A stretch of 64,000 bases of DNA from a virus, in the IMG/VR virus record IMGVR_UViG_3300044858_003284. One strand, 5' to 3'. A model generated the notes under the pieces. That model was given only the letters and a program-made list of their open reading frames with translations. It did not search any database and had not been told where the DNA came from. The stretch's first letter is position 1. Each line of letters opens with the position of its first letter. Positions 33,236-38,697 of the stretch are shown here, one piece after another. The position numbers were made by a program, and so were the translations under genes.

Positions 33236-35206
33236 TTATACTGGCCGCATGTTCTGCCGTTGAATTCTGAGTAGTGTTGGATCATCTATTCGAGTAGAAA
33301 CTGTGGTCTCTACAGAAATATTACCACCGCCACCAGAACCGTTACCAATAGTTTGAGAGTTATCGATAACTGTTGTGCTCATAGAAGGTTTGGCTGCCAT
33401 CTTAATTTCAGCATTCTTACTCATTGTAGATTCTAATCGTGTATCAGTACCACCACTAGAAGATACTGGTGTGACCATTGGTGCAGGTGCCGAAACTTTT
33501 GGTGTTGCTGATGTTGTTGGTGCGGCTGCAGGTGCCGTTTGATTTACTTTTGGAGTTTCTGTTGAAACGGGCTCTACAGGTTTATTATTTTCTTCTGGTG
33601 TGGCAGTAACCATAGGTTCCACATCAGCACTAGAATTTGCAATATGTTCAAATAGTTTTTCACTAATTGCTTTACCTGCCTTCTTACCACCAACATAACC
33701 CAATGCTGCGCCAGTTGCACCACCTAAGAAAGCACCTATTGGGCCACCAACCGATCCAATCGTTGCGCCTATCGTTGCACCCATAGAAGTACCAGCACCA
33801 GCGGCAATTATCTGTGCTGCACTTGATACCATAATCTCTCGTAATTGTTTATCATCTATCTTACCTTCTTCACGGTCAGCAATCGCCTGTTTCATTGTAT
33901 CCATGAGTTCAAAAGCACCAGCAATACCACCAATGAAAGGTAGCTTAGCAAAATACTTTAATACACCTTTAGCACCTTTTAATATTTTCGATATCTTTGT
34001 TGCTTTTGGTTTTTCTTCAACCTTTTCTACCTTTGTGGTTTTCTTTTCTTCTTCGTATTTCTCTTTGCCTTTTTTGGTGGCCTTTTCTGCCGTCTTTTTA
34101 GTTTTTTCTTCGGTCTTTTTCTGTTCTTCTGGTTTCGGTTCAGCAGGTTTTTGTTCTGCTGGTTTAGGTTCAGCTGGCTTAGGCTCTGCTGGTTTTGGTT
34201 CAGCAGGCTTAGGTTCAGCTGGCTTTGGCTCAGCAGGTTTAGGCTCTGCTGGTGCAGTTGGAGTTCTAATGCCTCTTATTTTATCAAAAGCCTTTTTTAA
34301 TCCTATTGCAGCTGCTATTTCACCTACAAACGTAAATAGTGGCCCAAGCAAAGACCATAATCCATTCCATATACTCGTTACAACTCCCAATAACATATTT
34401 TTTGCTGATTCGATTAGACCTTTGATAAAGTCAATAATACCACCACCTTCTTGTTTTTTCTCTACAGCTTTTACAGTTACAAAAGATCCTAAAGATTTAA
34501 TTGCTTCAATCAATTCTTTATTACGTTTTTCTTTTTCTTTCTCACGAATCTTTTTAAAACTCTTTTCTATTTGATATCTCTTTAAAGAATTAATCTGTTC
34601 AGCTTTTATCATGTTATACATGCGAGCCAATATGGTAGCAATACCATCACCTTTTTTCATAGACTGTGTATTACCTTCTGCAATAGAAGAATATAAACCC
34701 ACATCAGATTTGTTTAATTTTTCGTTAATGTATGCTGGTTTTTGTTTAGTTTCTTTTACTTTTTTACCAGAAAAATAACTAATATCTTCTTTACTTCTTC
34801 CTGTCATACCACCAAGTAAAGCAGAACCAAAACCACCAGTTAACATTCTGGCAATATTTAAAGGATCGAATTTTTCTTTTAATCCTAATGATCGTGCTTG
34901 AGATTTTTCTGATATACTGGAACGAATAGAAGAAAACACACCTTCTTGGCCTTCTATTATTTTTTCAGTAATTAAGTCTTTGAGAGATTTCTTTCTAATC
35001 TTAGATGCCTGCTGATATGACATCTTTTTATCGGTCGATTCGATAGTGTCCTGCTGTTTTGGTTTACCTAGTTGGGACATCTCTTTCTTTGTAGCTGGTC
35101 GAATATAACTGCCAGTTTCAGCCAAAAGAAACCAATGGCCTTTCTTATTAAAGGCATTTGGATTCCACGAAAAAGTATCTTGACCTATTGTTTTTATTGT
35201 AACCAT
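33236..35206 (-). CDS. Tape-measure / baseplate hub-like protein (gp29-like) with PAEPK repeats
   Basis: Helical protein with a glycine-zipper segment (GATIGATIGSVGGPIGAFLGG); located after gp26/gp51. Confidence 0.6.
   Translation of the reverse strand: MVTIKTIGQDTFSWNPNAFNKKGHWFLLAETGSYIRPATKKEMSQLGKPKQQDTIESTDKKMSYQQASKIRKKSLKDLITEKIIEGQEGVFSSIRSSISEKSQARSLGLKEKFDPLNIARMLTGGFGSALLGGMTGRSKEDISYFSGKKVKETKQKPAYINEKLNKSDVGLYSSIAEGNTQSMKKGDGIATILARMYNMIKAEQINSLKRYQIEKSFKKIREKEKEKRNKELIEAIKSLGSFVTVKAVEKKQEGGGIIDFIKGLIESAKNMLLGVVTSIWNGLWSLLGPLFTFVGEIAAAIGLKKAFDKIRGIRTPTAPAEPKPAEPKPAEPKPAEPKPAEPKPAEPKPAEQKPAEPKPEEQKKTEEKTKKTAEKATKKGKEKYEEEKKTTKVEKVEEKPKATKISKILKGAKGVLKYFAKLPFIGGIAGAFELMDTMKQAIADREEGKIDDKQLREIMVSSAAQIIAAGAGTSMGATIGATIGSVGGPIGAFLGGATGAALGYVGGKKAGKAISEKLFEHIANSSADVEPMVTATPEENNKPVEPVSTETPKVNQTAPAAAPTTSATPKVSAPAPMVTPVSSSGGTDTRLESTMSKNAEIKMAAKPSMSTTVIDNSQTIGNGSGGGGNISVETTVSTRIDDPTLLRIQRQNMRPV
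34118..34252 (-). repeat. Nine 15-bp units encoding PAEPK-type pentapeptides
   Basis: PAEPK x6, PAEQK, PAEPK, PEEQK, with synonymous codon variation. Confidence 0.92.
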
Positions 35207-35207
35207 T

Positions 35208-36890
35208 TTACATTGTAGCTAACATTGGAGAATCATCCATTACTGTGGTACTTATAATTTGTGGTTGTTGACCACCACCGGAATTAATGAATGTTTTTGT
35301 ATTATTTACTGCAACATTTGTTACAGGCACCTGTTCTTTTAAATCTTTATTTTGTGTAGACATGGCATACACTGCGTCACCTGATGGTGCATTTGTATAC
35401 GCTTCAACTTTGGCCATCTGTTCAGCACCAAAACCCTTTGTCAAATCAACACTAGCACCAACCACGGCCTTAGTGACTTCTTTATTGGCCTCAGACTGAC
35501 TCTTAAATGAGTTTACTTTATCACCTAATTTGTTCTTAACAAAGGCAGCAACAACTTTTGGTCCTATTTTTGAATCAAACACTAAGTCTGGATTGGAAAC
35601 TAAATCAACACCAATTTGTTTACCAATTCTTTTGTAATTATCTTTACCTGTCAACATAATTAAACCACGGCCACGATATTTGAATCCGTCACCAGGTTCT
35701 TTATTACCTAATTCTTGGCCTTTTTCAGTTTGATAACCATAAACTGTTTCAAAGAATTTAGAATCATCTTTTTTGATTTCATTTAACTGTTCATCAGATA
35801 GGTTTGCAACTCTACTGCCAAATATTTTACGAATTCTATCGTTTGAAGTTTTACCGTAACCAGTTTCATACTTTGCACCGAAACCAGATTCTTTACTGAC
35901 GTTGCCTAAAATGGCTTTCTGTGCATATTCATTGGTTATACCAACTTCAGCCAATGCTGTTCCGATACCGGCGATCACTGCAGCTGTACCACCAATTGCT
36001 GCAGCACCTCCTGCGGAAGGTGTTGGAACTTTTGTTGCTACTGGTGCTTGTGGTTTAATTTCTGTTGGTATAGATGGTGTTTCTTTTGTTACTTTGGGTG
36101 TAACTGTTGTAGGTTTAACAATTTCTTTGGCTTTACTAATGGCAGATGATACAGCTGGAATTTCTTTAGCTTTAGTGATAACACGAGCTGCAACTGGTGC
36201 AGCTACAACTGCGGCAGTAACAACAGCGGCTTCTGTTTTAGGTTCTGCTGGCTTTGGTGTTGGTGGTGTGGTTACAGTAGGTTGTTCAATATTTAAATCT
36301 TTTTTAGTTTTATCGATATCAATCTTTGTGGGCTTTTTATCTTTTAATTTTTTAATTTCAGCAATTAAATTATCGTGGCGTCTTTGATCTTCGGATTCTA
36401 TTTCTTCTTCAAAGTTGTGTTCTAATTCTCTATTGAGATTTTCTTTCTCATAAAAGAATTTTATTGTATTGGCCAATTTGGCTGCCACGGTTGCAACATT
36501 GTCGCCTTTTTGTAGAGAACTTCTTTGACCTTCTCTGATATTGGTATAGAAAGCAGTTTCAACATTACCGACCTTTGTTTCTTGTGGCCGAGTAATAGAA
36601 TATTCTTTATCACCTTTTTTTCGTCCTTTGTTTGCAAAGTATTGCATATCTTCAGGACTTCTACCAGTAATTTTACCCAATAGACCAACACCAAGATTAC
36701 CCGTAAACATTTTTGCTATGTTTAACGGGTCAAATTTCTCTTTTAGACCAGTTGTTCTGGCTTTAAAAGATTCTGATATACCACCACCAATCGATTGACC
36801 AACACCTTGGCCTGAGGTTAGTCTATTGGTAATTGTACCTAAGACACCTCGTTTTCTTGTGGCAGCTGCTCTTTCGTAATTGCTTATCAT
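35208..36890 (-). CDS. Tail-associated protein with GH19 (chitinase/lysozyme-like) domain
   Basis: KESG...LGNKEPGDGFKYRGRGLIMLTGKDNY..IG....VDLVSNPDLV GH19 signature. Confidence 0.82.
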   Translation of the reverse strand: MISNYERAAATRKRGVLGTITNRLTSGQGVGQSIGGGISESFKARTTGLKEKFDPLNIAKMFTGNLGVGLLGKITGRSPEDMQYFANKGRKKGDKEYSITRPQETKVGNVETAFYTNIREGQRSSLQKGDNVATVAAKLANTIKFFYEKENLNRELEHNFEEEIESEDQRRHDNLIAEIKKLKDKKPTKIDIDKTKKDLNIEQPTVTTPPTPKPAEPKTEAAVVTAAVVAAPVAARVITKAKEIPAVSSAISKAKEIVKPTTVTPKVTKETPSIPTEIKPQAPVATKVPTPSAGGAAAIGGTAAVIAGIGTALAEVGITNEYAQKAILGNVSKESGFGAKYETGYGKTSNDRIRKIFGSRVANLSDEQLNEIKKDDSKFFETVYGYQTEKGQELGNKEPGDGFKYRGRGLIMLTGKDNYKRIGKQIGVDLVSNPDLVFDSKIGPKVVAAFVKNKLGDKVNSFKSQSEANKEVTKAVVGASVDLTKGFGAEQMAKVEAYTNAPSGDAVYAMSTQNKDLKEQVPVTNVAVNNTKTFINSGGGQQPQIISTTVMDDSPMLATM

Positions 36891-37075
36891 TTACCTTGTC
36901 TTTGTTTTATCTTTTCGTTTTCTTCTTCAATAAATTGTATAAGCATATTAACGTAGATATCACGTTCCCAAGGTATCATATTTTCAAGTTCAGTTAAACT
37001 ATACTTGTGATGTTGCATCAAAGAAAAGTTTGTTTTATAATAATTTCTTAAATTGTCATGACGAAATGTTAACCG
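36887..37075 (-). CDS. gp51-like baseplate hub/tail assembly chaperone frame (probably reached by -1 frameshift from gp26; internal ATG at 37018)
   Basis: RLTFRHDNLRNYYKTNFSLMQHHKYSLTELENMIPWERDIYVNMLIQFIEEENEKIKQRQGK; not in the ORF track. Confidence 0.8.
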   Translation of the reverse strand, partial: RLTFRHDNLRNYYKTNFSLMQHHKYSLTELENMIPWERDIYVNMLIQFIEEENEKIKQRQGK

Positions 37076-37794
37076 AAAAAATTGTCTAACCCTTCCACCT
37101 CTATCGTGTGGTTATAACCACACTTACTACAAGTAGTTTTAATAACTTTATTCATTGTTGGTAAGTTATTAAAAAAGTTTTCTATTTTTGCAAACTGATC
37201 TTGATTCAGAGATTCGACAAACTCAATCATTTCTGTTGGATCGGTCTCTTTGGCATAGTAATATTGTTCACCGTCAAAGATATATTCGATACTCTCAACA
37301 ATCATTTGAAATGCCATATCGGTGGCACTATTAAATTTTGTTGCTCTTTCTAACAAAGAAAATTCTGGATATTTCAACTTGATTGCAATCGCATCAGTTA
37401 ATTGAATAATATCTTTGGCATCTTCTTTGTATTCAACCTTAATATCTAAAAGATTAATAGATGTATCCATTAAATTACCACAAGGTTTTTCATTAACTTC
37501 ATTCTCACAACGATATTTGGTTTCAATTACTTCACCAACTGATCGTGCTCTGAGATTAATAAAATAAAACTCAACGTCAATAATTGGTAATGAATCAATA
37601 TCAACGTTTGGTGTCAATGTGCAATTATGTAAAACTTGCCGAATATTCTTTTCAATTGTTTCTTTATCATCCGACTCCATCGCCATCATTAGGTTTCTTT
37701 GTTCTTTTACAAGAAACGGTCTGAATCGAATGTGTTTCTTTGATAACGGTAAATCTACTTCATATACAGGCGAATCAATTTTTGGTAAAGCCAT
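37069..37794 (-). CDS. gp26: Baseplate hub assembly protein gp26-like
   Basis: MALPKI..P.Y...LP.S...I.FRPFLVKE, LRARSVGE, C..CG, ...EGLDNFFG; AAGGAG RBS. Confidence 0.85.
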   Translation of the reverse strand: MALPKIDSPVYEVDLPLSKKHIRFRPFLVKEQRNLMMAMESDDKETIEKNIRQVLHNCTLTPNVDIDSLPIIDVEFYFINLRARSVGEVIETKYRCENEVNEKPCGNLMDTSINLLDIKVEYKEDAKDIIQLTDAIAIKLKYPEFSLLERATKFNSATDMAFQMIVESIEYIFDGEQYYYAKETDPTEMIEFVESLNQDQFAKIENFFNNLPTMNKVIKTTCSKCGYNHTIEVEGLDNFFG

Positions 37795-37818: not shown

Positions 37819-38697
37819 TTAATAACCGTCCCATTCTGAATATTGAAACGGACCACTTTCTTCATAATAATCTTGGCCTGATTCATACTCTAAAGGAAAA
37901 GGTTCTTCCACTAAATCATCTGAACCACCAAACCATGAGGATCCAGAATCATCGTAACCATCATAACCACTTCTACCTGTGTTGTCATTTCCAATTGTTG
38001 TAAAAGGATTATCTAAATCTGCTTCATCACCAAAAGTGCCTAATGAACCAATGCCACCTAAAGCAGCAGTGATTCTAGATATAACACTTAACAATAATGA
38101 TGTGCCTAATGCTTGAACAGAGTTATTCATCCAATACGAATAGGCAAACACAACGGTTAGTTTGTGGTGTCCATCAGCCGACCAATCTAAATCTAATTGA
38201 TTGACTGAAACTGGATAAGCATCTATCAATGTTACAGAATAACTTTTATCATTCTCTACATCATACTGATTAATTGTGATGTTTGAAACATAATCAGTTT
38301 TATATGTAAAGTTAAACGAATAGGTTGGGTTTATAAATTCTTGCCATGTGTCAAAGAATATTCTTTCATTCATATCATCACCAACAATGAATGTTAACGC
38401 TACATCATTGTATGTTGGTTGATACGGAAACTTTTCAACGGGATTAGAACCTATTTTTCTATCTGCTGTAGCAAATGTTCTACTTGGCAATTCTGCGTTC
38501 TCACAGCGCATCTTTAATATTCTTGACATACCTCTAAAAGGTATCAATGTGATAGGTACAGGTATCTCCACATCAAATTTGTTTGGTCTTGCAACGTCAG
38601 TAACAAAACTTGATTTGAAATCGTTAATACTACCACTAGTGCCTGGTTCGTTACCAAAAAGGCCAATATTGCCAAATAGGTTATCGAAAATTGCCAT
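37819..38697 (-). CDS. Tail tube initiator / tube-family protein (gp54-like)
   Basis: ARPNKFDV, C...ELP.R, KFPY..TY.DV.LTF, FFDTWQ, L.DAYP.SV...L.W......L.V.FAY. Confidence 0.78.
   Translation of the reverse strand: MAIFDNLFGNIGLFGNEPGTSGSINDFKSSFVTDVARPNKFDVEIPVPITLIPFRGMSRILKMRCENAELPSRTFATADRKIGSNPVEKFPYQPTYNDVALTFIVGDDMNERIFFDTWQEFINPTYSFNFTYKTDYVSNITINQYDVENDKSYSVTLIDAYPVSVNQLDLDWSADGHHKLTVVFAYSYWMNNSVQALGTSLLLSVISRITAALGGIGSLGTFGDEADLDNPFTTIGNDNTGRSGYDGYDDSGSSWFGGSDDLVEEPFPLEYESGQDYYEESGPFQYSEWDGY

What the first reader, a model, noticed from the sequence alone, without database searches (positions are those of the whole stretch)
36887..37100. Probable -1 programmed ribosomal frameshift fusing gp26 to a gp51-like frame: a lambda G/GT-type tail chaperone pair in a T4-like phage
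Seen: on the minus strand gp26 ends GAC AAT TTT TTC GGT TAA, placing a canonical U_UUU_UUC slippery heptamer (37081-37075) one codon before the stop. The -1 frame is open from there to 36887 and reads RLTFRHDNLRNYYKTNFSLMQHHKYSLTELENMIPWERDIYV... The gp51-like motif I recognise (NYYKTNF.LMQHH) begins upstream of the first ATG (37018), which has no Shine-Dalgarno. SD-like GAGGTGGAAGG lies about 9-20 nt before the slip site. Known: most long-tailed phages make a G/GT chaperone pair by -1 frameshift in the gene between the tail tube and tape measure genes, and T4 is usually cited as lacking it. Here the order is tube-family gene, gp26, gp51-like, tape-measure-like genes. Inference: a 241 aa product and an approximately 302 aa fusion are made, and gp26/gp51 in these phages are G/GT equivalents.
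Basis: partly seen in the sequence, partly recalled or inferred. Interest (0 to 1): 0.85.

Follow-up and report, generated by a model that had tools for sequence, protein, structure and literature searches.

The report
Frameshift in T4-like baseplate-hub chaperone gene
One tail-assembly gene of this uncultured T4-like phage very probably makes a short and a long protein, because some ribosomes slip back one base on a strictly conserved TTTTTTC; phage T4 makes the same pair from two genes (26 and 51), and the shared front part is predicted to fold like the tail assembly chaperones that use this trick in lambda-like phages.

Summary
gp26 (37794-37069, minus strand, 241 aa, PF12322) ends AAT TTT TTC GGT TAA. 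The heptamer T_TTT_TTC lies at 37081-37075, and the -1 frame is open for 62 more codons to 36887.

Evidence for a programmed -1 frameshift giving 241-aa and 302-aa products:
- TTTTTTCG is invariant in 56 distinct junctions of close relatives and in 44 of a marine cyanophage-like clade. Neighbouring synonymous sites vary freely.
- Sequence variation follows the -1 frame from the heptamer onward.
- About half or more of the relatives have no start codon ahead of the conserved tail residues.
- Three relatives have a -1-frame stop directly before the heptamer.
- The window and three large related contigs carry only one PF12322 gene.
- T4 gp51 is the in-frame equivalent: PF12322 plus the same tail.

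New here: models of the window's gp26 and of a fused homologue were each compared with 48,161 solved chains. In both cases the three best matches were the three solved tail assembly chaperones (Z 6.8-7.9; next best 4.5-5.4). So the lambda G/GT reading rests on predicted fold as well as on logic. No sequence-level link was found.

Not shown: frameshift efficiency, binding partners, and whether the downstream genes are tape measures. No conserved downstream RNA structure was found. I found no paper that reports the slip. This scan had already noted the same feature on other DNA (at least 67 genomes).

The parts
37069..37794 (-). gp26-like gene (241 aa, stop included). This is the short product. 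Residues 1-95 have a predicted tail-assembly-chaperone-like fold. Residues about 96-240 form a beta-rich domain with four Cys (C96, C105, C223, C226 by my count).
   Evidence: ORF list. PF12322 T4_baseplate E 2.5e-58 over residues 9-240, and phrog_150 E 6e-64. AF2 model pLDDT 84.4. Fold matches.
37090..37101 (-). Shine-Dalgarno-like purine stretch GAGGTGGAAGGG, 8 nt upstream of the heptamer. It is a possible stimulator of the slip, as in E. coli dnaX. It also encodes the conserved E-V-E-G.
   Evidence: Sequence. GGAGGG or GAAGG is conserved at this spacing in both clades. The Glu codon here is GAG in 23 of 32 genes, against 21% GAG elsewhere in gp26. Its function is inferred, not shown.
37075..37081 (-). 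Slippery heptamer T_TTT_TTC (U_UUU_UUC), the site of the proposed -1 tandem slip of the two tRNA-Phe.
   Evidence: Sequence. Invariant, together with the following G, in 56 + 44 distinct relatives. F239 is TTT in 32/32 and F240 is TTC in 32/32, while other invariant Phe columns mix both codons.
37069..37071 (-). Zero-frame stop codon of gp26, exactly one codon after the heptamer.
   Evidence: The stop is at the same position in all relatives of both clades.
36887..37075 (-). -1-frame extension (62 codons plus stop), the Gp51_C module. Joined to gp26 residues 1-240 it gives the 302-aa long product.
   Evidence: Translation. phrog_634 'baseplate hub assembly catalyst' E 5.6e-30. Aligns with T4 gp51 residues 201-244. 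Homologues carry PF28602 Gp51_C. -1-frame codon periodicity starts at the heptamer.
37819..38697 (-). Upstream neighbour: a tail-tube-fold protein (292 aa), most like the T4 gp54 tube-initiator type. This is synteny context.
   Evidence: phrog_45 tail tube E 4e-37; Pfam gp19 family is weak. The gene at this position is annotated gp54-like or tube initiator in Aeromonas phage Ahp1 and Rhizobium phage RHph_I34.
35208..36890 (-). Downstream neighbour (560 aa) with a GH19 lysozyme-like domain. Its ATG overlaps the stop of the -1-frame extension (ATGA). It is a candidate tape-measure or hub protein, unverified.
   Evidence: ORF list. PF00182 and phrog_181. No similarity to T4 gp29 or the Cr30 tape measure.
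33236..35206 (-). Second downstream gene (656 aa). It is paralogous to the 560-aa protein over an N-terminal domain of about 180 aa, and it carries PAEPK repeats and a Gly-rich hydrophobic region. It is a candidate tape-measure or ejection protein, unverified.
   Evidence: BLASTP 40% identity over 181 aa, E 3e-31. Only unnamed PHROGs match. No similarity to T4 gp29.

Best explanation
The gp26-like gene is recoded by a programmed -1 ribosomal frameshift.

Most ribosomes read ...AAT TTT TTC GGT TAA and release a 241-aa protein. A fraction slip back one base while the two tRNA-Phe sit on U_UUU_UUC (37081-37075). They then read CGG in the -1 frame and add 62 residues (the Gp51_C module). The long product is 302 aa: gp26 residues 1-240 followed by RLTFRH...QGK.

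The purine-rich GGAAGGG/GAGGTG stretch 8-15 nt upstream may stimulate the slip by pairing with 16S rRNA. The nearby zero-frame stop may also help. Both stimulators are inferred.

The two products are the counterparts of T4 gp26 and gp51, the non-structural baseplate-hub assembly chaperones. T4 encodes these as two diverged paralogous genes.

The shared N-terminal 95 residues are predicted to have the tail-assembly-chaperone fold. The pair therefore most likely works like lambda G/GT or P2 E/E+E'. Under that model, both forms would bind the tape-measure or hub core through the common domain, and the rarer long form would use its short C-terminal module to recruit or release another hub or tube component. 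This last, functional step is inferred by analogy and is not shown.
For: Shown directly or by comparison:

1. The heptamer plus the next G (TTTTTTCG) is invariant in 56 distinct junctions of 80 IMG/VR relatives (70-98% aa identity). It is also invariant in 44 of 44 distinct junctions of 80 marine cyanophage-like loci.
2. In GenBank, phages P-RSM4, ACG-2014e and Aeromonas Ahp1 have the same heptamer, and Cr30 has T_TTT_TTT.
3. Only 11 of 236 degenerate codons keep an invariant third base across 32 distinct genes. Three of them are the consecutive codons 238-240.
4. The residue before FF varies (N/S/D/A/G), but its codon always ends in T.
5. The codon after the heptamer varies in the zero frame (G/V/D/A/E) but is always CGN = Arg in the -1 frame. 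Third-position variability switches to the -1 frame exactly at the heptamer.
6. No ATG, GTG or TTG precedes the conserved tail residues R3-F19 in 29 of 53 distinct window-clade sequences and 43 of 56 cyanophage-clade sequences.
7. In L030, L037 and L052 a -1-frame stop lies directly before TTT TTT, which excludes an upstream start.
8. There is only one PF12322 gene in the window, in three large related contigs, and in the complete genomes that have the adjacent tail ORF.
9. T4 and Acinetobacter phage Melin have two PF12322 genes each. Their gp26 ends non-slippery: TTC TTT in T4, TTT GTC in Melin.
10. T4 gp51 residues 1-201 cover the full PF12322 model (E 4e-52). Residues 201-244 align with the window's -1 peptide. 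A tblastn of T4 gp51 against the window gives two aligned segments (HSPs) in the two frames, meeting at the heptamer.
11. Fold: the window gp26 model (pLDDT 84.4) matches YqbN 3klu (Z 7.4, 86 aa aligned), Rbstp2171 3fgx (Z 7.3, 86 aa) and HK97 gp13 2ob9 (Z 6.8, 80 aa). These are the top three of 48,161 chains; the next best is Z 4.5. The fused homologue P0006 gives the same three on top, at Z 7.9, 7.4 and 7.3. PMC9603447 names these three as tail assembly chaperones.
12. T4 gp26 and gp51 are listed as hub assembly chaperones, and gp51 is absent from the particle (PMC3004832).
Against: - No conserved RNA structure follows the site. RNAalifold predicts 0 pairs over 26 sequences, and the window's own fold has z = -1.28. 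Lambda G/GT is said not to need one, but that is from my memory.
- The SD-like element overlaps conserved E-G codons, so its conservation is confounded.
- In Ackermannviridae (Dickeya phage Ds16CZ, Vibrio phage 207E48.1) the tail ORF has an ATG overlapping the gp26 stop and no canonical heptamer. Cr30 and Rhizobium phage RHph_I34 have both a T-run and such an ATG. The tail may therefore work as a separate peptide in some lineages.
- The chaperone-fold match is between predicted models and crystal structures at Z below 8. The tool warns that such values can reflect a common arrangement.
- There is no sequence-level link: none in Pfam or PHROGs, and hhalign against the HK97 gp13 family gives probability 0.14%.
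- The downstream genes are not demonstrably tape measures.
- Metagenomic in-frame fusions (P0012, P0015, P0018) come from long-read contigs and look like indel errors, so they are not evidence.
- There are no protein or ribosome-profiling data.
Confidence: 0.85

Rival explanations
1. Separate small protein. The gp51-like ORF would be translated on its own, giving a peptide of about 44-62 aa that is never joined to gp26. Translation would occur by termination-reinitiation after the gp26 stop, or by initiation at TTG 37021 or ATG 37018.
For: In Ackermannviridae, Cr30 and Rhizobium phage RHph_I34 the tail ORF has an ATG overlapping the gp26 stop (TAATG or TGATG). GenBank records annotate a separate 50-60-aa gp51. 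About 45% of window-clade relatives have an ATG, GTG or TTG within the first 11 tail codons.
Against: In this window the first start-like codon lies inside the conserved motif. That is after the conserved R3, H8, L11, Y14, Y15, N18 and F19, and there is no SD. The start is absent in 29 of 53 and 43 of 56 distinct relatives. This reading does not explain the invariant heptamer, the NNT wobble before it, or the -1-frame constraint beginning at the heptamer. T4 gp51 shows that the tail is naturally attached to a gp26-like body.
Confidence: 0.07
2. Transcriptional slippage. RNA polymerase would add one U within the T6 run, so a minority of mRNAs would encode the same 302-aa fusion in frame without any ribosomal slip.
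For: The site is a homopolymer (T6; T7 in Cr30). The protein product would be identical, so the comparative data cannot separate the two mechanisms.
Against: From general knowledge, efficient transcriptional slippage usually needs runs of about 8-9 or more. Here the conserved unit is precisely the zero-frame-phased X_XXY_YYZ, with the run fixed at 6 T followed by C and G in 100 distinct sequences. That pattern fits tandem tRNA slippage. An SD-like element at dnaX-like spacing is enriched.
Confidence: 0.05
3. Relic. The downstream frame would be a decaying remnant of a former gp51 gene and would not be expressed.
For: No start codon and no annotation in some records, for example ACG-2014e.
Against: The 62 codons are under clear purifying selection with -1-frame periodicity across two clades and 547 GenBank records. 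The frame is open in every relative.
Confidence: 0.01

Closest known systems
Phage T4 gp26 (208 aa) and gp51 (249 aa), baseplate hub assembly chaperones (Leiman et al. 2010, PMC3004832)
   Same: Same protein family: PF12322 in gp26, in gp51 and in the window protein. T4 gp51 residues 201-244 are homologous to the window's -1-frame tail. As here, there is a short and a long form that share a body.
   Different: T4 encodes the two forms as separate, divergently transcribed, about 20% identical paralogues. It has no slippery site at the end of gene 26 (TTC TTT). Here one gene plus a frameshift gives two proteins with identical bodies.
Lambda gpG/gpGT and the conserved -1 frameshift of tail assembly chaperone genes. 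Examples: HK97 gp13 and its frameshift product, annotated in NC_002167, and P2 E/E+E'. The reference, Xu, Hendrix & Duda 2004, is cited from memory and from reference lists.
   Same: A -1 slip on a heptamer close to the end of the upstream ORF gives a short abundant form and a C-terminally extended form. The gene sits just after a tube-fold gene. The N-terminal domain is predicted to share the chaperone fold. In T4 the products are non-structural.
   Different: No detectable sequence relation to Phage_TAC families. gp26 carries an extra C-terminal domain of about 145 aa with four Cys. The extension is only 62 aa. The proteins act in hub assembly of a complex baseplate. The tape-measure identity of the downstream genes is unverified.
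E. coli dnaX -1 frameshift (A_AAA_AAG with an upstream SD-like element and a downstream hairpin); from general knowledge
   Same: A tandem-slip heptamer with a Shine-Dalgarno-like element about 8-10 nt upstream.
   Different: No conserved downstream hairpin was found here. The heptamer is U-rich, and the shifted product is longer rather than shorter.

Membership tests
T4 gp26/gp51 baseplate-hub assembly protein family (Pfam PF12322 T4_baseplate, plus PF28602 Gp51_C) | Significant match to PF12322 over the whole domain | tested here: met
   E 2.5e-58, residues 9-240 to profile positions 2-218 of 219. T4 gp26 and gp51 match the same model.
T4 gp26/gp51 baseplate-hub assembly protein family (Pfam PF12322 T4_baseplate, plus PF28602 Gp51_C) | gp51-type C-terminal module following the PF12322 body | tested here: met
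   The -1 peptide matches phrog_634 at E 5.6e-30. It aligns with T4 gp51 201-244. Homologues carry PF28602 Gp51_C in precomputed annotation. The module follows the body only through the frameshift.
T4 gp26/gp51 baseplate-hub assembly protein family (Pfam PF12322 T4_baseplate, plus PF28602 Gp51_C) | Required for hub assembly but absent from the virion | not testable with these tools
   Known for T4 only (PMC3004832).
Programmed -1 ribosomal frameshift site | X_XXY_YYZ heptamer in the zero-frame phase with an open -1 frame downstream | tested here: met
   T_TTT_TTC at 37081-37075; -1 frame open for 62 codons.
Programmed -1 ribosomal frameshift site | Heptamer conserved beyond what the encoded amino acids require | tested here: met
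   Invariant in 56 + 44 distinct sequences. The wobble positions are fixed, while 95% of other degenerate codons vary at the third base.
Programmed -1 ribosomal frameshift site | Purifying selection in the new frame begins at the slip site, with no independent start | tested here: met
   CGN = Arg is conserved. Most relatives have no start. Three relatives have a -1-frame stop directly upstream of the heptamer.
Programmed -1 ribosomal frameshift site | Stimulatory element (downstream structure or upstream SD-like sequence) | tested here: inconclusive
   No conserved downstream structure. An upstream GGAGGG or GAAGGG lies at 8-9 nt with GAG enrichment, but it overlaps conserved E-G codons.
Programmed -1 ribosomal frameshift site | Trans-frame protein detected | not testable with these tools
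   Needs mass spectrometry, a reporter assay or ribosome profiling.
Tail assembly chaperone pair (lambda G/GT type) | Tail-assembly-chaperone fold of the shared N-terminal domain | tested here: met
   For two AF2 models, the three solved tail assembly chaperones (2ob9, 3klu, 3fgx) are the top three of 48,161 chains. Z is 6.8-7.9, with 80-86 residues aligned, covering most of each target. The next best is Z 4.5-5.4. This compares predicted models and is not a solved structure.
Tail assembly chaperone pair (lambda G/GT type) | Sequence membership in a Phage_TAC Pfam or PHROG family | tested here: not met
   No tail-assembly-chaperone family among hits even at E up to 10. hhalign against a PF06222 (HK97 gp13) alignment gives probability 0.14%. 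The known chaperone families are themselves mutually undetectable by sequence (from memory).
Tail assembly chaperone pair (lambda G/GT type) | Gene located between the tail tube gene and the tape measure gene | tested here: inconclusive
   The upstream gene has a tube fold. The downstream 560-aa and 656-aa proteins have tape-measure-like size and composition but no detectable similarity to T4 gp29 or the Cr30 tape measure.
Tail assembly chaperone pair (lambda G/GT type) | Short form binds the tape measure; the extension of the long form binds the tube protein | not testable with these tools
   Needs pull-downs or co-expression.

The most novel reading that the evidence does not exclude
gp26 and gp51 would be the missing G/GT-type tail assembly chaperones of the T4 superfamily, homologous in fold to those of lambda-like and HK97-like phages.

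The one-gene-plus-frameshift arrangement is seen here, in cyanophages, in Cr30-like phages and in some Straboviridae. On this reading it would be the ancestral state. T4's two separate genes (26 and 51) would be a derived resolution of the frameshift by duplication. The coupled small ORF of Ackermannviridae would be a third solution.

That would make the frameshifted chaperone pair universal among long-tailed phages. It would also explain the old 'catalytic' gp51 phenotype as that of a low-abundance GT-like form.
Probability: 0.5. Interest if true: 0.75.

Novelty: new member of a known kind. Interest (0 to 1): 0.7.

Why it matters
T4 is the reference model for contractile-tail assembly, yet the roles of gp26 and gp51 have stayed vague ('hub assembly chaperone', 'essential protein of unknown function'; PMC3004832).

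If most T4-like phages make the pair from one gene by a conserved -1 slip, and the shared domain has the tail-assembly-chaperone fold, three things follow:
- Hub and tape-measure assembly in T4-like phages follows the same logic as in lambda-like, HK97-like and P2-like phages.
- Hundreds of genome records mis-annotate a start-less 'gp51' stub or leave it out. For example, it is not annotated in ACG-2014e.
- The function of gp51 becomes directly testable as a GT-like form.

The finding also adds a clean, deeply conserved U_UUU_UUC recoding site without an obvious downstream structure. I found no paper describing it.

Tried and rejected
- Downstream stimulatory RNA structure. RNAalifold on 26 diverse relatives predicted no pairs. 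The window's own fold is not better than shuffles, z = -1.28.
- Natural in-frame fusions as proof of the long form. P0012, P0015 and P0018 (299 aa) come from long-read contigs (two of them named '_pilon'). At the DNA level they show a displaced gp26 C-terminus in another frame, or altered T-run lengths. I treat them as likely indel artefacts and do not use them as evidence.
- Complex prediction of the 64-residue tail with the upstream gp54-like tube-fold protein (residues 1-200). The verdict was 'no answer', score 0.00. This is uninformative either way.
- Sequence-level link to tail assembly chaperones. Pfam at E up to 10 on 49 family members, PHROGs on seven N-terminal domains, a PDB profile search and hhalign against an HK97 gp13 (PF06222) alignment gave nothing.
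- Tape-measure identity of the downstream genes. There is no similarity to T4 gp29 (phrog_1283) or to the Cr30 tape measure.
- Whole-genome search. No genome is held for this window. I used the 64-kb window and three large related contigs instead.
- A megablast of the locus against GenBank phages found no near relative.
- T4-type controls from IMG/VR gave only 7 loci, nearly all T4 itself. The non-slippery control therefore rests on T4 and Melin only.
Full report
**Observation**

On the minus strand the 241-aa ORF 37794..37069 ends GAC AAT TTT TTC GGT TAA. In the zero frame this places T(37081) TTT TTC(37075) as a canonical X_XXY_YYZ heptamer, one codon before the stop. From CGG (37075) the -1 frame is open for 62 codons to the stop at 36889-36887. 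The only start-like codons in it (TTG 37021, ATG 37018) lie inside the conserved NF-LMQHH motif and have no purine-rich leader. GAGGTGGAAGGG lies at 37101-37090.

**Identity of the parts**

- The ORF is a gp26-type protein: PF12322 T4_baseplate, E 2.5e-58, residues 9-240, so the domain ends at the last codon of the heptamer; phrog_150.
- The -1 peptide matches phrog_634 'baseplate hub assembly catalyst' at E 5.6e-30. It also matches the C-terminal 40 positions of phrog_150.
- Homologues in the large protein collection carry the newer Pfam family PF28602, named Gp51_C.
- Neighbours on the same strand, upstream: gp4 and gp2 homologues and a tube-fold protein of the gp54 type.
- Neighbours downstream: two paralogous large proteins of 560 and 656 aa.
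- The opposite strand carries gp48, gp53 and further baseplate genes.
- The phage has no close relative in GenBank. The best gp26 identity there is 37%, to cyanophages. It has many relatives in IMG/VR metagenomes.

**Is the heptamer more than chance?**

In the window's own ORFs of at least 100 aa, in-frame slippery heptamers occur at 0.44% of codons. Only this ORF, 1 of 59, has one in its last four codons.

The decisive evidence is comparative. I fetched 80 relatives at 70-98% gp26 identity, which gave 56 distinct junction sequences.

- Positions -10 to -3 relative to the stop (T TTT TTC G) are invariant in all 56. Every other zero-frame third position nearby varies.
- Across 32 distinct full-length genes only 11 of 236 degenerate codons keep an invariant third base. 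Three of them are the consecutive codons 238-240.
- The 8-nt run is the longest invariant stretch in the gene.
- The residue before FF changes (N, S, D, A, G), but its codon always ends in T.
- F239 is TTT and F240 is TTC in 32 of 32 genes, whereas other invariant Phe columns mix both codons.
- A second clade, 80 marine cyanophage-like loci with about 30-37% gp26 identity to the window, has TTTTTTCG in 44 of 44 distinct junctions. The stop is again exactly one codon later.
- GenBank phages P-RSM4, ACG-2014e and Aeromonas phage Ahp1 show the same. Cr30 has T_TTT_TTT.

**Is the -1 frame read from the heptamer?**

- The codon after the heptamer is G, V, D, A or E in the zero frame, but always CGN = Arg in the -1 frame.
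- From there on, variable positions fall on -1-frame third positions.
- Tail residues R3, H8, L11, Y14, Y15, N18 and F19 are conserved.
- Yet 29 of 53 distinct window-clade sequences and 43 of 56 cyanophage-clade sequences have no ATG, GTG or TTG before residue 19.
- In L030, L037 and L052 a -1-frame stop lies directly in front of TTT TTT, so translation cannot enter from an upstream start.
- A tblastn of the tail against GenBank phages finds 547 records. The alignment typically starts at the first residue after FF and overlaps the annotated gp26.

**The T4 connection**

T4 gp51 (249 aa) matches the whole PF12322 model with residues 1-201 (E 3.9e-52), as gp26 does. Its residues 201-244 align with the window's -1 peptide. 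A tblastn of T4 gp51 against the window gives two aligned segments (HSPs) in two frames that meet at the heptamer.

T4 gp51 is therefore the in-frame equivalent of the predicted 302-aa product. T4 genes 26 and 51 are divergently transcribed paralogues at about 20% identity.

The distribution of gene copy number is complementary.

| Genome | PF12322 genes | End of gp26 |
|---|---|---|
| T4 | 2 | non-slippery (TTC TTT) |
| Acinetobacter phage Melin | 2 | non-slippery (TTT GTC) |
| This window and three large related contigs | 1 | T_TTT_TTC |
| Ahp1, P-RSM4, ACG-2014e | 1 | T_TTT_TTC |
| Cr30 | 1 | T_TTT_TTT plus an ATG overlapping the stop |
| RHph_I34 | 1 | T_TTT_TTG plus an ATG overlapping the stop |
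| Dickeya Ds16CZ, Vibrio 207E48.1 (Ackermannviridae) | 1 | no canonical heptamer; ATG overlapping the stop |

Sources.

**Test of the G/GT idea**

I modelled a fused homologue (P0006, pLDDT 80.8) and the window's gp26 (pLDDT 84.4, pTM 0.79). I then aligned each model to 48,161 representative solved chains without a prefilter.

| Solved chain | Z, P0006 model | Z, window gp26 model |
|---|---|---|
| HK97 gp13 (2ob9) | 7.9 | 6.8 |
| B. subtilis YqbN (3klu) | 7.4 | 7.4 |
| Rbstp2171 (3fgx) | 7.3 | 7.3 |
| Next best match | 5.4 | 4.5 |

For both models these three chains are the top three. They align over 80-86 residues of model residues 1-95. PMC9603447 states that these three are phage tail assembly chaperones. 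In HK97, gp13 is the short product of an annotated -1 frameshift gene lying between the major tail and tape measure genes.

The G/GT reading therefore has structural support, not only analogy. The limits are these:
- The Z values are below the level the tool regards as safe on their own.
- The structures compared are predictions.
- No sequence method links the families.

The remainder of gp26 (about residues 96-240) is a beta-rich domain with four Cys. It has only weak matches (Z 3.5-4) to DnaJ/Hsp40 C-terminal regions.

**Mechanism: what is shown and what is inferred**

Shown by comparison:
- the site;
- the frame;
- the absence of an independent start;
- the equivalence to T4 gp51.

Inferred:
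- That the slip is ribosomal rather than transcriptional. The phased X_XXY_YYZ with a fixed T6-C-G argues for tRNA slippage.
- That the upstream GGAGGG or GAAGGG, 8-9 nt before the site, stimulates it. GAG is used in 23 of 32 genes at this Glu codon, against 21% elsewhere in gp26. The element also encodes conserved E-G.
- That the long form is the minor one. This fits the 'catalytic' gp51 of the T4 literature, which is absent from the particle (PMC3004832).

No conserved downstream RNA structure exists in this clade.

**Complications**

- In Ackermannviridae the tail ORF, still in the -1 frame, has its own ATG overlapping the gp26 stop and no canonical heptamer.
- Cr30 and RHph_I34 have both a T-run and such an ATG.
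- The wider family thus shows at least three arrangements: frameshift, two full genes, and a coupled small ORF. In some lineages the tail may act as a free peptide.
- The tape-measure identity of the downstream proteins is not supported by sequence.

**Prior knowledge**

Seven full-text searches found no paper that reports a frameshift between gp26 and gp51. The T4 tail review does not mention one. None of the GenBank records I opened for phages with a gp26-adjacent tail ORF annotates a frameshift join.

Earlier agents of this scan reported the same frameshift on other DNA, 72 notes in at least 67 genomes. None of the notes retrieved mentions the match to the solved tail assembly chaperones.

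**Verdict**

This is a new member of the known class of frameshifted tail-assembly-chaperone genes, found in the phage group where the class was thought to be missing.

Noticed in passing
window 33236-36890 (minus strand): The two large genes after the frameshift cassette are paralogues over an N-terminal domain of about 180 aa (40% identity, E 3e-31). The 560-aa one carries a GH19 lysozyme-like domain. The 656-aa one carries eight or more PAEPK repeats and a Gly-rich hydrophobic segment. Neither resembles T4 gp29. The start of the 560-aa gene overlaps the stop of the -1-frame extension (ATGA), not the gp26 stop.
   Followed up: partly
window 37069-37510 (gp26 residues about 96-240): The C-terminal domain of gp26 has four Cys in two pairs (C96/C105 and C223/C226). 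It gives weak structural matches (Z 3.5-4.0) to DnaJ/Hsp40 C-terminal and zinc-finger regions. The second Cys pair is missing in the cyanophage clade.
   Followed up: no
L089 (Vibrio phage 207E48.1) 2148-2348; L091 (Dickeya phage Ds16CZ) 2232-2393: In Ackermannviridae the Gp51_C-like ORF is still in the -1 frame. It starts with an ATG that overlaps the gp26 stop (TAATG), and no X_XXY_YYZ heptamer is present. This looks like a coupled separate ORF or a different recoding signal.
   Followed up: partly
L093, L094, L095 (ENA long-read contigs), around 2150-2250: Gene callers report 299-aa 'fused' gp26-gp51 proteins on these contigs. The DNA shows shortened or lengthened T-runs, or a displaced gp26 C-terminus in another frame. 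This is typical of homopolymer indel errors and could mislead protein databases.
   Followed up: partly
fold search of the gp26 models: ORF19 of the Vibrio cholerae PICI-like element (PDB 5ir0) is the next phage-related match to the chaperone-like domain (Z 4.5-4.6, 75-82 residues aligned).
   Followed up: no
L002 3211-3393 (Synechococcus phage ACG-2014e, KJ019054): The 182-nt 'gap' between the annotated gp26 and the next gene holds the start-less Gp51_C frame. The GenBank record annotates nothing there.
   Followed up: yes
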